Notes: generated by a model from the letters alone, not told the origin. 64,000 bases of DNA from Pseudomonadota bacterium (GCA_039196665.1 JBCCUQ010000008.1:1996-65995), one strand, 5' to 3'; counted from the stretch's first letter, positions 60,747-64,000 are shown. Numbers and translations are program-made.

Positions 60747-60819
60747 GCTCAAAAATCAATGTGATTTCCACGACTTAACGGCGCGGGCGCATTTGGGATT
60801 TTCGCTGTTTTCCGGCACT

Positions 60820-62649
60820 ATGAGTGCTCTGGCCAACACTAAAAACGATGCCCTCATGAAACTTCAACTCGGCGACTGGACTATCCAGGAGCACGCCAAT
60901 CTGCTGACACGCGAGGAAAAGGTCGTGCGGCTGGAAAGGCGCGTCATGGCCGTGCTCATGCAACTTATCGAGGCGAACGGGAGCGTCGTCGCCAAGGAAG
61001 AATTGATCGAAAAAGTCTGGAATGGCGCAGCCGTCAGCGATCATTCTGTAGCCAACGCAATCAGTGATTTGCGCCGGGCGCTTGGCGACGATCGAAAAAA
61101 ACCGGACTATATCGAGACCATTCCAAAGCGCGGTTATCGTCTGATCCAGACCGCGCAAACGATAGACACGGACGGGAATAATAAAACGACGGGCGTGTCG
61201 CCATCGCAGCATTCAATGCCGCAAGTCTGGATGTTTGTCGCGTCGGCTCTATTGGTCGGGGTCGTCATCGCCATTGTCTTTTTGCGGCCAACCCCGCCGG
61301 CGAGATTATTCCTTACTGACATTGAAAATGCGACGGGGCAAACTCGCCATGACCTTGCGGCCAACGCTGCGACGGAAATGCTGACGGTATCTCTTTCCGG
61401 CGGCGCTCTTAGACTGGTTCGCTGGCGCGCGCCCTTCGCCGCTGCAAACGACATTCAGACAATGGATCATGACAGAATTGTCTCCGGCCGCATCATCACT
61501 GATGGCGGAACGCCCATTCTTACCCTGGACGTTATCGATCCGGCAGACGGCGCATCAATTTGGGCGAGCGCCTATCCAATGACTGACGCCAACTTCGCCA
61601 CCCTCGCCAATGTTATCGCAGCTGATCTTCGCGAGCCTCTAAGAATTGCGCAGCCCCCGGCGGCATACGCCGCCGCTGAGCCGGACATCGCGGAGGCCTA
61701 TTGGCGCGCGCGTTACCTGTGGAGTTTGCGGGAGCACCAAGCGATACGCCAGGCGCTGCGCATCCTGGAAGGCGTCGTAATCAAAGCGCCCAGCTATGCG
61801 CCGGCGCATGCCGCCATCGCGGATATCTATGCGCACAAGACGGCGGAAGAACTGGGTCTGGAGCGATCCGAAACCTATCCGTTTGCAGAACATCATCTTG
61901 CACGAGCCTTCGCCTTAAACCCTGATCTTGCAGAAGCGTTCATCACCCGCGCCTATCTTGCTTTTTTCCGCGACCGCGACGCCCCACGCGCCATAGCGGA
62001 GATCGATAAAGCTATTGAGGCGCAACCAGCCAACGCCGTCGCATGGCAGACCAAAGGCATGATCGCCAGCGCCGCCGGCGAAGCCCGCATAAGCCTGCAG
62101 GCGATAGAGCGGGCGCATGATCTCGACCCTCTTTCCGCGGGCATCGCCTGGGACAAAGTCTGGTTTCTCTATGTCGCCGACCGCCCGGATGAAGCGCTCG
62201 CGGCAGCGCAGAATGCGCGCCGCATTGCACCACCGGTGCATGTCTATGAAGCGCTCATCCATCTCGCACGTAACGACGAATTAGCGGCTTTTGAAAGCTG
62301 GCTCAATCATGCTTTGGCGCGGGGGCTGCCAAATGAGCGCGGGGCGGAAATTCGTGCTATCGCCAATAAGCAAGGGGCGCGCCGAGGTCTGTCCGCGATT
62401 GCATCAGCAGCCGCGACAAACAGCAACGCCAATCCGCAAAGCTACCGGCAAATCACGCTCCCTCACGCAACGCTGCTTGCAGCATTGGATCAGAACGACG
62501 CTGCAATAGAGCTGCTCCTGAATAATCCGCCTAATGAAAAAAGCTGGTGGTGGAGCTGGTACGATGTGATGCCGGGAATTGATCCACTCAGAGACGACCC
62601 GCGATTACAGTCTCTAACCCTTACGCCTGCCGTCACTGCAGACGGATAG
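60820..62649 (+). CDS. CadC/ToxR-like wHTH-TM-TPR membrane-anchored regulator
   Basis: KEELIEKVW...LRRALGDD...YIETIPKRGYRL OmpR-type wHTH, one TM, TPR repeats; start may be 60856. Confidence 0.88.
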   Translation: MSALANTKNDALMKLQLGDWTIQEHANLLTREEKVVRLERRVMAVLMQLIEANGSVVAKEELIEKVWNGAAVSDHSVANAISDLRRALGDDRKKPDYIETIPKRGYRLIQTAQTIDTDGNNKTTGVSPSQHSMPQVWMFVASALLVGVVIAIVFLRPTPPARLFLTDIENATGQTRHDLAANAATEMLTVSLSGGALRLVRWRAPFAAANDIQTMDHDRIVSGRIITDGGTPILTLDVIDPADGASIWASAYPMTDANFATLANVIAADLREPLRIAQPPAAYAAAEPDIAEAYWRARYLWSLREHQAIRQALRILEGVVIKAPSYAPAHAAIADIYAHKTAEELGLERSETYPFAEHHLARAFALNPDLAEAFITRAYLAFFRDRDAPRAIAEIDKAIEAQPANAVAWQTKGMIASAAGEARISLQAIERAHDLDPLSAGIAWDKVWFLYVADRPDEALAAAQNARRIAPPVHVYEALIHLARNDELAAFESWLNHALARGLPNERGAEIRAIANKQGARRGLSAIASAAATNSNANPQSYRQITLPHATLLAALDQNDAAIELLLNNPPNEKSWWWSWYDVMPGIDPLRDDPRLQSLTLTPAVTADG

Positions 62650-62666
62650 ATTAGAACTCGCCACGT

Positions 62667-63095
62667 TCATTGGCACCAAACGCCTTTGTCGCTGCGAACC
62701 GCCAGGCCTTCCTCAACCAAGGCTGTCGACAGATCGCCGTCTTGTGTCTCAATGCGCGCAACGACACGTCCACCATATTTATCGCGTCCGATATCGTGCA
62801 GCGTCGCGTCGCTACCTTTAAGAAAATCCTCGACAAACCGTTTGGCGAGCTCGGCCTTATCACGTTCGTCAGTACATTGGGGCCGGAACAGCTCCGGCGC
62901 ATCCACCCCGGCTAAGCGAATGGAGACGACAAGCTCCTGATCGATCCAGATGGCGACACGCATCCGCACCGTATCCCCGTCGATAACCCGCTCAACAACC
63001 GCAGGGGCCGGTCCAATGGCGTTCCCGGCGGCGTGCGCATCGGCTGCAGCCATTGCAAACAGCAATATATAAGTGTATAATCTTAACATGCACAC
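62667..63095 (-). CDS. thermonuclease (SNase-like) family protein, exported
   Basis: VIDGDT, IRLAGVDAPE, DKYGGRVVA, LVEEGLA. Confidence 0.92.
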   Translation of the reverse strand: MCMLRLYTYILLFAMAAADAHAAGNAIGPAPAVVERVIDGDTVRMRVAIWIDQELVVSIRLAGVDAPELFRPQCTDERDKAELAKRFVEDFLKGSDATLHDIGRDKYGGRVVARIETQDGDLSTALVEEGLAVRSDKGVWCQ

Positions 63096-63108
63096 TCATA
63101 AGTAGCAT

Positions 63109-63123
63109 GTTCTTTTTATGTTC
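63109..63123. promoter_or_regulatory. alphaproteobacterial LexA (SOS) box GTTC-N7-GTTC
   Basis: GTTC-TTTTTAT-GTTC, exact consensus, ~14 bp upstream of the thermonuclease start. Confidence 0.8.
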
Positions 63124-63135
63124 TCAATATACTTG

Positions 63136-63450
63136 CGACTGAATTAATTAAGCGTAGTCAGCCCGGCGACCGGGATTATGGGGAATATTGACGGGTCAGC
63201 CTTACAGCCGTCAAAAATCGACTGCCCGGTCGCCGCGCCTTGAGACACTTGCCCGATTGTCTCCTGCACCATACCCTGACTTCCGGCGCAGAGGAGAGAC
63301 TGCGCCTCGACTGAATGCAGATATTAACGACAGCCGCGCAATGACGCGGTTATTCGCCGTGGCGCACCCTGGATGGACGCCGCCTACCGACTGGCATTCA
63401 ATTTAATCTGTTGAGTCGCACTCTCCCCCCGAAACACACGGGAAAGGAGC
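63136..63450 (+). ncRNA. candidate structured leader / ncRNA
   Basis: At least five stems of 6-11 bp plus long-range complementarity; no credible ORF. Confidence 0.5.
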
Positions 63451-63456
63451 CCTGTC

Positions 63457-64000
63457 ATGAAACACAACACCCTCCGTGTAATATTGCACGCTATTGTCGC
63501 GGCATTCGCGATGCAGTCCGCACAAGCCGTCGACTTCGTTATCGTCTACGACCCCAACGATCCTCAAGGCATTGATCCGTGCACACCGAATATGGATTTT
63601 AAAGTTTGCCCGAACGGCGCGCCCGACACAGAAAAAATGGTGGACATTATTGAAGCCGCCGCCGCCCACTGGTCTGACATCATTGAAGACGACCACTCTA
63701 TTTTGATCAAGGCGGCCTGGTTTAACCCCGCCTTTGGCAGCAAACCGGAAGCGTCGATTGAAGACACCGATGCGGATGGGCGCACCACAGTCGCGCGCAT
63801 TAGGATCGGACCAACGCTGAAATATTTCTACGACCCGACGCCGAATGACGACACCGAATTCAATATGCGCCCGGCGCTGTTCAGAACACTGAACCCCAAT
63901 GAACGATTTGAAGCTTTTTCCGTTCAGCCGATTATGTCGCAATGGGACGCGGTCGAGCTTGCTGATATCGGTGTTTCCGAGGACAGCACACCAGATTATG
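63457..64000 (+). CDS. exported protein, possibly matrixin-like metalloprotease (partial, runs off right edge)
   Basis: RBS AAGGAG; MKHNTLRVILHAIVAAFAMQSAQA signal; EAAAAHWSDII and YFYDPTPNDDTEF resemble N-terminal parts of bacterial matrixin-type proteins; open to the window end; HExxH not visible. Confidence 0.7.
   Translation, partial: MKHNTLRVILHAIVAAFAMQSAQAVDFVIVYDPNDPQGIDPCTPNMDFKVCPNGAPDTEKMVDIIEAAAAHWSDIIEDDHSILIKAAWFNPAFGSKPEASIEDTDADGRTTVARIRIGPTLKYFYDPTPNDDTEFNMRPALFRTLNPNERFEAFSVQPIMSQWDAVELADIGVSEDSTPDY

What the first reader, a model, noticed from the sequence alone, without database searches (positions are those of the whole stretch)
63136..63456. ~300-nt structured leader with switch-like SD/anti-SD pairing and a recurring CGACTG
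Seen: CGGCGACCGGG/CCCGGTCGCCG (63164-63174/63225-63235, perfect 11 bp) enclosing TTGACGG/CCGTCAA; GAGACA/TGTCTC (63242-63263); GGCGCAG/CTGCGCC (63285-63306) with loop AGGAGAGA; AGCCGCG/CGCGGTT (63332-63351); long-range TGAATGC/GCATTCA (63312/63394). CTCTCCCCCC at 63421 can pair either with the gene's SD region or with the AGGAGAG loop. CGACTG recurs at 63136, 63219, 63308 and 63388 (80-89 nt apart; noticed post hoc). Inference: a riboswitch-like translational control element or separate ncRNA upstream of a secreted protein.
Basis: partly seen in the sequence, partly recalled or inferred. Interest (0 to 1): 0.6.

Follow-up and report, generated by a model that had tools for sequence, protein, structure and literature searches.

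The report
Patchwork spacer, not one riboswitch
The supposed 300-base structured leader is two unrelated pieces of DNA joined when a protease gene was inserted, so it is not one RNA switch, though the piece next to the gene may fold to mask its ribosome-binding site.

Summary
They do not form one element.

- **Window 63096-63237 is old local DNA.** It is shared at 90-93% with two relatives. There the 11-bp hairpin overlaps the stop codon of a small DUF1674 gene on the minus strand.
- **From 63238 on is an insertion.** G000 carries 2401 nt (219 nt upstream region, a 724-aa secreted HExxH/dockerin protein gene, 7 nt) flanked by a 26-nt direct repeat, 22 of 26 identical.
- **CGACTG is not a signal.** Two of the four copies lie in each piece, and the recurrence is not beyond chance in real sequence.
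- **No known RNA family.** No Rfam family reaches its threshold.
- **Little conservation.** The only ortholog with DNA (G036, another locus) shares just a 41-nt patch (63285-63325) and a pyrimidine tract with the Shine-Dalgarno (SD) site.
- **Folding is above average only.** z = -2.9, against a background where 18% of spacers reach -2.5.

SD masking by the tract is plausible in both orthologs, weakly supported and untested. No RNA data exist. Ordinary, low interest.

The parts
62667..63095 (-). SNase-like nuclease gene (142 aa), the divergent left neighbour.
   Evidence: ORF. Pfam SNase E = 2.4e-9. Conserved in G014 and G030.
63109..63123 (-). GTTC-N7-GTTC direct repeat (GAAC-N7-GAAC on the minus strand), 13 nt upstream of the nuclease start. 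Probably a LexA (SOS) operator of the nuclease, not part of any leader.
   Evidence: Repeat D8. The same box form precedes lexA, a Y-family polymerase, MmcB-like and HhH-GPD genes in G000. GTTCN7GTTC is given as the Caulobacter SOS box in Table 1 of PMC9578287 (passage seen).
63164..63235 (.). Ancestral two-tier hairpin: 11-bp outer stem and 7-bp inner stem. In relatives its right arm is the last codons (GGRAVDF*) of the DUF1674 gene on the minus strand.
   Evidence: (z = -2.74). All 54 of 54 cells pair on the + strand across 3 genomes, with 1 pair changed on both sides (G-C to A-U in G000).
63212..63237 (-). Left copy of the 26-nt direct repeat. It is an orphaned remnant of the DUF1674 3' end and would read ..RGDRAVDF*. 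The intact gene end is the right copy at C8:67634-67659, beyond the window end.
   Evidence: 22 of 26 identical. The intact gene ends WERGGRAVDF*; Pfam DUF1674 E = 1.5e-15.
63238..64000 (+). Left part of a 2401-nt insertion (C8:65233-67633). It holds a 219-nt upstream region, the 2175-nt protease-like gene and 7 nt. It is absent from the same site in G014 and G030.
   Evidence: Both junctions are bridged by contigs of a second run from the same study (X2, records 11 and 15).
63242..63263 (+). Hairpin GAGACA/TGTCTC (6 bp, 10-nt loop). Not conserved in G036.
63285..63325 (+). The only conserved patch of the upstream region. It holds the hairpin GGCGCAG/CTGCGCC, the purine loop AGGAGAGA and GAATGC. 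It is a candidate promoter/operator, or an SD-mimic (anti-anti-SD).
   Evidence: 78% identity to G036 over 41 nt, with 14 nt (GGAGAGACTGCGCC) identical. It lies 172 versus 181 nt before the ATG. Local score is 37 against a null maximum of 26 in 300 shuffles. The 14-mer is unique in G000: the only 14-mer hits allowed 2 mismatches and none showed a shared context.
63332..63351 (+). Hairpin AGCCGCG/CGCGGTT (7 bp, one G-U on the + strand). Not conserved in G036.
63421..63430 (+). Pyrimidine tract CTCTCCCCCC, the candidate anti-SD.
   Evidence: Best predicted partner of both the SD and the GGAGAGA block. The G036 counterpart is TTTCTTTCT at about -47. Background for such tracts is 46 of 1114.
63441..63450 (+). 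Shine-Dalgarno region GGGAAAGGAG, 7 nt before the ATG.
   Evidence: Same GGAG-N7-ATG spacing in G036.
63457..64000 (+). Start of the 724-aa protein gene. The protein has a signal-peptide-like N-terminus, an HEVGHVIG zinc-protease motif and a C-terminal dockerin. The gene ends at C8:67626.
   Evidence: Pfam Dockerin_1 E = 1.5e-5 (above cut-off); Peptidase_M10 E = 0.003 (below cut-off).

Best explanation
The 361-nt spacer is a patchwork made by one insertion. It is not a single structured leader.

**1. Window 63096-63237 is ancestral.**
- It carries a probable LexA box for the divergent SNase-like nuclease.
- It also carries a two-tier hairpin. In the closest relatives this hairpin overlaps the stop codon of a minus-strand DUF1674 gene. 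It most likely served as that gene's 3' stem-loop, or as an insulator in front of the SOS-controlled nuclease (inferred).
- In G000 the hairpin is orphaned, because a 2401-nt segment was inserted 2 nt beyond its base.
- The insertion duplicated 26 nt, so the DUF1674 gene keeps an intact end 2.4 kb away.

**2. Window 63238-63456 is the imported upstream region of a rare, horizontally moving secreted HExxH/dockerin protein gene.**
- I infer that it holds the gene's own promoter or operator, in or near the one conserved 41-nt patch (63285-63325).
- I also infer a 5' UTR in which the pyrimidine tract 63421-63430 folds back on the SD and damps translation. Odds are about one in three.
- If transcription starts upstream of 63285, the conserved GGAGAGA block can compete for the tract and free the SD.

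**3. The CGACTG recurrence and the long-range inverted repeat 63134-63151/63403-63420 each straddle the junction, so they are coincidences.**

Shown: the mosaic origin, the junctions, the lack of any Rfam match, and which parts are conserved. Inferred: every statement about function.
For: **Mosaic origin**
- Only query positions 1-142 (window 63096-63237) match G014 (93%) and G030 (90%). This was among 60 other genomes searched, of which 4 matched at all.
- In those two genomes the order is nuclease(-), hairpin, DUF1674(-), htpX(+).
- In G000 the two flanks lie 2.4 kb apart and share a 23-nt overlap in the relative's coordinates.
- The junction sequences and the 26-nt repeat (22 of 26 identical) are read.
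- Two independent contigs of run X2 bridge both junctions.

**Hairpin**
- 54 of 54 cells pair, and one pair changed on both sides.
- The G000 change turns the remnant codon GGC into GAC (Gly to Asp), while the real gene end keeps GG. This fits a non-coding remnant that keeps its pairing.

**A rare, mobile gene**
- Found in 1 of 49 other genomes of the genus.
- Found in 1 of 400 other genomes of the order.
- Found in 0 of 400 other genomes of the class.
- In G036 it sits next to a tRNA-Met gene, at a different locus.

**No known RNA family:**

**Conservation is limited to the patch:** coding DNA is 73.7% identical over 2092 nt, but upstream only 41 nt align.

**SD masking**
- Without the patch in the RNA, summed tract-SD pair probability is 6.18 of 10 in G000 and 9.45 of 11 in G036.
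- With the patch in the RNA, tract-GGAGAGA pairing is 5.7-6.0 of 9 in G000 and 4.7-8.1 of 9 in G036.
- In G000, 1 of 300 shuffles gives one tract that serves both partners equally well near the SD.
- A run of 9 or more pyrimidines at -70..-15 occurs at 46 of 1114 candidate starts.
Against: - No transcript data exist. No RNA run is listed, so the transcription start site, and therefore whether any of this is RNA, is unknown.
- The comparative basis for the right part is a single ortholog.
- In G036 the duplex energies are weak (-7.6 and -7.5 kcal/mol). They are matched by 239 and 104 of 300 shuffles, and the joint criterion by 18 of 300.
- The G000 tract-SD duplex alone is matched in 38 of 300 shuffles.
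- The tests on the tract were designed after seeing it.
- The hairpin has no U-run: 0 terminator-like sites were found in 62600-63600. A terminator role is therefore not supported by the consensus scan.
- With 3 sequences, the covariation count is reached by 165 of 500 shuffles.
- Neither upstream region has a sigma-70-like match. The only match in G000 lies inside the nuclease gene at 63053-63081, with 1 found against 0.7 expected. G036 has 0.
- Direction of the event (gain in G000 rather than loss in G014 and G030) rests on other genus members that have DUF1674 followed by nuclease-type upstream sequence without the protease gene. It does not rest on a rooted tree.
Confidence: 0.7

Rival explanations
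1. A genuine three-part translational switch lies within the imported region, about 63285-63456. Transcription starts upstream of 63285. The conserved purine block GGAGAGA (an SD mimic) and the SD compete for the pyrimidine tract. Some signal shifts the balance and sets translation of the secreted protease: temperature, a small RNA or a protein.
For: - The three pieces are the only parts that survive between G000 and G036.
- The same tract is the best partner of both the block and the SD in both genomes, at -45/-41 and -47/-47.
- In both genomes the ensemble shows the two pairings as alternatives.
- By eye, the tracts differ almost only by C/T transitions, which keeps pairing to purines.
- In the G036 fold, the minimum-energy structure and the centroid pick the two alternative pairings.
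Against: - There are only two sequences, and the tests are post hoc.
- The G036 energies are not beyond shuffles.
- The domain enclosed between block and tract is not conserved, so there is no aptamer.
- No Rfam thermometer or riboswitch family matches.
- CsrA, which could read GGA loops, was not found in G000 although the control genomes ring.
- The patch could equally be a DNA site. In G036 it is followed by ATGATG and a 12-codon uORF that G000 lacks.
Confidence: 0.2
2. There is no RNA-level control at all. The patch is a promoter or operator, the small hairpins are incidental GC-rich palindromes, and the pyrimidine tract is neutral or a ribosomal-protein-S1-type translation enhancer rather than a mask.
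For: - The z-score of the 219-nt region (-2.88) lies inside the spread of ordinary ORF-free gaps, of which 18% are at or below -2.5.
- Both strands fold about equally well: z = -2.66 on + and z = -3.14 on -.
- The hairpins at 63242-63263 and 63332-63351 are not conserved.
- The 5' arm of the patch hairpin is less conserved than its loop and 3' arm. GGCGCAG versus GGCGTTG breaks one pair. This looks like sequence constraint rather than structure constraint.
Against: - Retention of a run of 9 or more pyrimidines at the same place in both orthologs, against a 4.1% background.
- Its predicted pairing with the SD.
- No recognisable sigma-70 hexamers in the patch.
Confidence: 0.35
3. One reading: the whole stretch of about 300 nt (63136-63456) is one riboswitch-like leader or a separate ncRNA.
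For: - The complete spacer folds better than all 100 shuffles on the + strand (z = -2.59).
- All listed helices exist.
- All three variable stem positions of the big hairpin stay paired on the + strand, via G-U or a double change.
Against: - The stretch is of mosaic origin, with a junction at 63237/63238.
- No Rfam family matches.
- The ortholog G036 has the gene without the left part.
- The minus strand folds about as well.
- It is single-copy in the genome. Of 18 matches, the other 17 are 27 nt or shorter with E of 0.65 or more.
- No terminator-like site.
Confidence: 0.03
4. The region is a miniature inverted-repeat mobile element, bounded by the 18-nt inverted repeat 63134-63151/63403-63420.
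For: the repeat finder I1: 18-nt arms, 78% complementary, 251 nt apart.
Against: - There is only one copy in the 3.87-Mb genome.
- The left arm is ancestral and present in G014 and G030 without the right arm. The right arm lies inside the inserted segment.
Confidence: 0.01

Closest known systems
Expression platforms of translational riboswitches with anti-anti-SD / anti-SD / SD segments (for example the E. coli thiM TPP riboswitch; PMC2018614, seen only in the search listing; the architecture is recalled)
   Same: Three segments whose pairings exclude each other: an upstream purine block, a pyrimidine tract and the SD. The ensemble predicts them as alternatives.
   Different: There is no aptamer. 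The enclosed domain is not conserved in the ortholog, and no riboswitch family of Rfam 15 matches.
RNA thermometers that mask the SD with a pyrimidine/U tract (fourU, ROSE; recalled)
   Same: A short, imperfect tract-SD helix. G036 has UUUCUUUCU against AGAAGGGAG with G-U pairs. G000 has an internal loop.
   Different: No Rfam match. The gene is a secreted protease-like protein, not a heat-shock or virulence regulator. Temperature dependence was not tested.
3' stem-loops and intrinsic terminators that overlap a stop codon
   Same: The hairpin 63164-63235 is GC-rich and, in relatives, begins within the last codons of the DUF1674 gene and spans its stop.
   Different: There is no U-run after the stem on either strand, and the scan found 0 terminator-like sites. 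The 50-nt interior carries a second stem.
Alphaproteobacterial LexA operator GTTC-N7-GTTC (Caulobacter crescentus; Table 1 of PMC9578287, passage seen)
   Same: The exact box form lies 13 nt upstream of the nuclease gene. The same form precedes lexA and repair genes of G000.
   Different: Binding is not tested. There are 82 exact sites genome-wide, many inside genes.
Site-specific integration that duplicates the 3' end of the target gene (tRNA-type genomic islands; recalled)
   Same: The insert is flanked by direct repeats, and the interrupted gene keeps an intact end. The ortholog in G036 lies beside a tRNA-Met gene.
   Different: The segment is only 2.4 kb and holds one gene, with no integrase or transposase inside it. 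The repeats are 22 of 26 identical. The target is a protein-gene end at the base of a hairpin.

Membership tests
Riboswitch (any Rfam 15 family) | Match to a curated covariance model at or above its gathering score | tested here: not met
   Best hits fall far below cut-off: ssnA 15.3 bits against 37.3, Leu_leader 14.3 against 50. The G036 leader shows only the neighbouring tRNA.
Riboswitch (any Rfam 15 family) | Aptamer core conserved in sequence and structure among orthologous leaders | tested here: not met
   Only 41 nt align between G000 and G036. The rest scores at null level. This rests on one ortholog only.
Riboswitch (any Rfam 15 family) | Ligand-dependent structural change | not testable with these tools
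   Needs in-line probing or reporter assays.
SD-masking translational leader (thermometer-like or anti-SD hairpin) | A segment complementary to the SD within the 5' UTR, predicted to pair with it | tested here: met
   Summed tract-SD pair probability is 6.18 of 10 (G000) and 9.45 of 11 (G036) when the RNA starts after the patch. Energies are not beyond shuffles in G036.
SD-masking translational leader (thermometer-like or anti-SD hairpin) | The masking segment is transcribed (transcription start upstream of it) | not testable with these tools
   No RNA run is listed. No promoter is recognisable.
SD-masking translational leader (thermometer-like or anti-SD hairpin) | Pairing kept through sequence change in relatives | tested here: inconclusive
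   Both orthologs keep a run of 9 or more pyrimidines (background 46 of 1114). There are only two sequences.
Intrinsic terminator (hairpin 63164-63235) | GC-rich stem directly followed by a U-run | tested here: not met
   0 terminator-like sites in 62600-63600, against 1.2 expected in shuffles.
Conserved structured hairpin (63164-63235) | Base pairs kept through compensatory change | tested here: inconclusive
   54 of 54 cells pair, and 1 of 18 pairs changed on both sides. With 3 sequences, 165 of 500 shuffles do as well.
MITE / repeat element | Multiple copies with the same terminal inverted repeats | tested here: not met
   A single full-length copy in G000. The two arms have different origins.
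CsrA/RsmA-controlled leader | CsrA encoded by the organism | tested here: not met
   PF02599 was not found in G000 (100% complete). It was found in 3 of the 14 control genomes searched.
LexA operator (box at 63109-63123) | GTTC-N7-GTTC close to the start of the regulated gene, and the same motif at lexA and repair genes of the genome | tested here: met
   Motif source: PMC9578287, Table 1. Binding itself is not testable here.

The most novel reading that the evidence does not exclude
A compact three-part translational switch travels with a rare, horizontally mobile secreted metalloprotease gene. Its parts are a conserved SD-mimic block GGAGAGACUGCGCC, a pyrimidine anti-SD tract and the SD. It would be an undescribed RNA motif whose trigger (temperature, a small RNA or a protein) is unknown. 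A second, separate possibility is that the DUF1674-end hairpin acts as a landing site for recombinase-free gene insertion at its base.
Probability: 0.15. Interest if true: 0.45.

Novelty: new member of a known kind. Interest (0 to 1): 0.22.

Why it matters
Mainly as a caution. A spacer that looks like a long, helix-rich leader can be a junction between DNA of two origins, and only comparison with relatives reveals this.

Three things are left that can each be tested:
- a possible SD-masking leader in front of a rare secreted protease-like gene of a marine alphaproteobacterium;
- a hairpin that kept its pairing after losing its gene;
- a probable SOS-controlled secreted nuclease.

None of these would change current views if confirmed.

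Tried and rejected
- **Rfam.** Three scans at permissive E-values gave nothing near a gathering score.
- **Repeat or MITE.** The element is single-copy in G000.
- **More orthologous leaders.**
  - Genus DNA search: 1 of 49.
  - Order protein search: 1 of 400.
  - Class profile search: 0 of 400.
  - Genome contigs returned only the G036 record.
  - Two metagenome-contig scans found nothing.
  - The protein database holds closer relatives, P0003-P0006 at 57-80% identity.
- **RNA evidence.** No RNA holder is listed. The laid contigs are DNA only. No contig of run X3, which holds a roughly 90% relative of the gene, covers the leader.
- **Empty site for the G036 copy.** Its downstream flank is a multi-copy gene family and gave no synteny, so this was dropped.
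- **CsrA model.** Rejected.
- **Conserved 14-mer as a recurring genomic motif.** Allowing 2 mismatches gave 51 hits, and the 30 of them that were printed showed no shared context. The extended 26-nt pattern is unique apart from one 4-mismatch hit.
- **Leader peptide.** G036 has a 12-codon uORF right after the patch (MMECRHSEWLHC*). G000 has no start codon there.
- **Promoter.** No sigma-70-like site lies in either upstream region. ECF-type and sigma-54-type motifs were looked for by eye only, and none was shared.
- **Base composition.** It does not mark the insert.

Full report
**Setting.** The window is G000:C8:1996-65995. The finding lies in a 361-nt spacer (63096-63456).
- On its left is a minus-strand SNase-like nuclease gene (62667..63095; Pfam SNase E = 2.4e-9).
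- On its right is a plus-strand gene starting at 63457. It runs beyond the window and encodes 724 aa.
- That protein has a signal-peptide-like N-terminus (my reading) and an HEVGHVIG motif.
- Its Peptidase_M10 hit is below cut-off (E = 0.003). Its C-terminal dockerin hit is above cut-off (E = 1.5e-5).

**Observation.**
- The whole spacer folds somewhat better than shuffles on both strands: z = -2.59 on + and z = -2.42 on -.
- No Rfam 15 family comes near its gathering score, in two scans of the window or in a scan of the ortholog's leader.
- The consensus scan found no terminator-like site. It found one promoter-like site, inside the nuclease gene, against 0.7 expected.

**The spacer is a mosaic.**
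- A DNA search of 60 other genomes found 4 with any match. In the two good ones, G014 (93%) and G030 (90%), the match covers only query positions 1-142, which is window 63096-63237.
- In both relatives the nuclease gene is followed by the same hairpin, then a small minus-strand gene, then htpX.
- The small gene in G000 ends WERGGRAVDF* and is DUF1674 (E = 1.5e-15).
- In G000 the two flanks are 2.4 kb apart and overlap by 23 nt in the relative's coordinates.
- The inserted segment is C8:65233-67633, 2401 nt. It holds a 219-nt upstream region, the 2175-nt gene and 7 nt.
- It is flanked by a 26-nt direct repeat: left copy at window 63212-63237, right copy at C8:67634-67659, 22 of 26 identical.
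- The right copy gives the DUF1674 gene its intact end. Its differences from the relatives are synonymous (GGT, GCC, TTT, TAG).
- The left copy is an orphan that would read RGDRAVDF*.
- Contigs of a second run from the same study bridge both junctions (X2 records 11 and 15). A misassembly is therefore unlikely.
- Among the 29 loci examined for the DUF1674 gene end, four (L042, L043, L049, L053) show the stop followed by nuclease-type upstream sequence, with no protease gene found there. I therefore read the event as a gain in G000. No rooted tree was built.

**What this does to the finding.**
- The perfect 11-bp stem with its inner 7-bp stem (63164-63235) is ancestral. Half of it is the former coding end of DUF1674.
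- CGACTG at 63136 and 63219 is ancestral; the second copy is the codons for A-V-D read on the other strand. CGACTG at 63308 and 63388 is in the insert.
- The right copy of the direct repeat reads CGACGG instead.
- A hexamer recurring 4 or more times is seen in 79 of 5000 shuffles, but in 47 of 398 real tiles of this window.
- The 18-nt inverted repeat 63134-63151/63403-63420 also straddles the junction. The region is single-copy, so it is not a MITE.

**The hairpin.**
- Across G000, G014 and G030, all 54 cells of the 18 pairs are standard pairs on the + strand.
- One pair changed on both sides (G-C to A-U in G000), and two changed on one side to G-U.
- With three sequences this is not significant: 165 of 500 shuffles do as well.
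- The one-sided changes would be A-C mismatches on the minus strand. With two events, this is only a weak hint about strand.
- Other members of the genus conserve the gene end (WE[RK]xGRA[VI]DF*) but not the downstream arm. The hairpin is therefore specific to this small clade.
- It has no U-run. I infer a 3' stem-loop or insulator role ahead of the nuclease promoter; this is not shown.

**The imported 219 nt.**
- The gene is rare: 1 of 49 other genomes of the genus, 1 of 400 of the order and 0 of 400 of the class.
- The large protein database holds 17 relatives.
- The one ortholog with DNA, G036 (76-78% protein identity), lies next to a tRNA-Met gene.
- Coding DNA is 73.7% identical over 2092 nt. 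Upstream, only 41 nt align (window 63285-63325, 78%, 14 nt identical), at a similar distance from the ATG: 172 versus 181 nt. The local score is 37, against a null maximum of 26 in 300 shuffles.
- The hairpins at 63242-63263 and 63332-63351 and the enclosed domain are not conserved. There is no aptamer-like core.
- The region's z-score (-2.88) is above average but ordinary for this genome. In 45 other ORF-free gaps the mean is -1.21 and 18% are at or below -2.5.

**SD masking.**
- Both orthologs carry a run of 9 or more pyrimidines 27-47 nt before the ATG (G000 CTCTCCCCCC, G036 TTTCTTTCT), followed by a GGAG-N7-ATG site.
- Such runs occur at 46 of 1114 SD-bearing candidate starts in G000.
- In the partition function the tract pairs mainly with the upstream GGAGAGA block when that block is in the RNA: 5.7-6.0 of 9 in G000 and 4.7-8.1 of 9 in G036.
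- When the RNA starts after the patch, the tract pairs with the SD: 6.18 of 10 in G000 and 9.45 of 11 in G036.
- In both genomes the same tract is the best duplex partner of the block and of the SD.
- In G000 a tract serving both equally well near the SD arises in 1 of 300 shuffles. In G036 it arises in 18 of 300, and the single energies are matched by 239 and 104 of 300 shuffles.
- These tests were framed after seeing the tract. I give SD masking about one chance in three, and the full three-part switch about one in five.
- CsrA was not found in the genome.
- No RNA run exists to place the transcription start.

**Comparison with known systems.**
- The logic resembles the anti-anti-SD / anti-SD / SD platform of translational riboswitches, and SD-masking thermometers.
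- Membership in any riboswitch family fails both on the model match and on core conservation.
- The hairpin fails the terminator test, because it has no U-run.

**Verdict.**
- The sequence features are real.
- The single-leader and riboswitch interpretation is not supported.
- A simple, still untested SD-masking leader in the imported part remains possible.
- Overall the finding is ordinary and of low interest.

Noticed in passing
window 63109-63123: GTTC-N7-GTTC box 13 nt upstream of the SNase-like nuclease gene. The same box form precedes lexA, a Y-family polymerase, MmcB-like and HhH-GPD genes in G000, so the secreted-looking nuclease is probably SOS-regulated. The box is intact in G014 and G030.
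   Followed up: partly
window 63212-63237 and C8:67634-67659 (beyond the window end): A 2401-nt single-gene insertion is flanked by a 26-nt imperfect direct repeat (22 of 26). It lies 2 nt beyond the base of the hairpin, and the repeat equals the hairpin's right arm plus its internal loop. No recombinase gene lies inside. The mechanism is unknown; it could be att-like integration or a hairpin-linked event.
   Followed up: partly
L027 2420-2928 (G036): The ortholog lies beside a tRNA-Met gene. Its conserved patch is followed directly by ATGATG and a 12-codon uORF (MMECRHSEWLHC*) that G000 lacks. The patch also weakly resembles the gene's own ribosome-binding region (score 15, below the null mean of 18).
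   Followed up: partly
window 60793-62649 (+): A 618-aa protein with an N-terminal OmpR/PhoB-type winged-helix domain (Trans_reg_C, E = 5e-17) and TPR-like repeats. It is ancestral and also present in G014. Any link to the neighbouring genes was not examined.
   Followed up: no
L027 5113-6100 (G036): The DNA downstream of the G036 ortholog belongs to a family with 5 matches in G036 and scattered matches in 15 other genomes of the genus.
   Followed up: no
L025 1860-2399, 2997-3414 (G000 C8 coordinates 65811-67365): Run X3, from another study, holds contigs roughly 90% identical to parts of the protease gene and of the flanks. A closer relative than G036 therefore exists, but no contig covers the leader.
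   Followed up: no
C8:67627-67659 (beyond the window end): The 7-nt spacer GCGGCGC after the protease stop codon can pair with CGCCGC in the right repeat copy. On the minus strand this would give a 6-bp stem around the new DUF1674 stop codon. This was read by eye and not folded.
   Followed up: no
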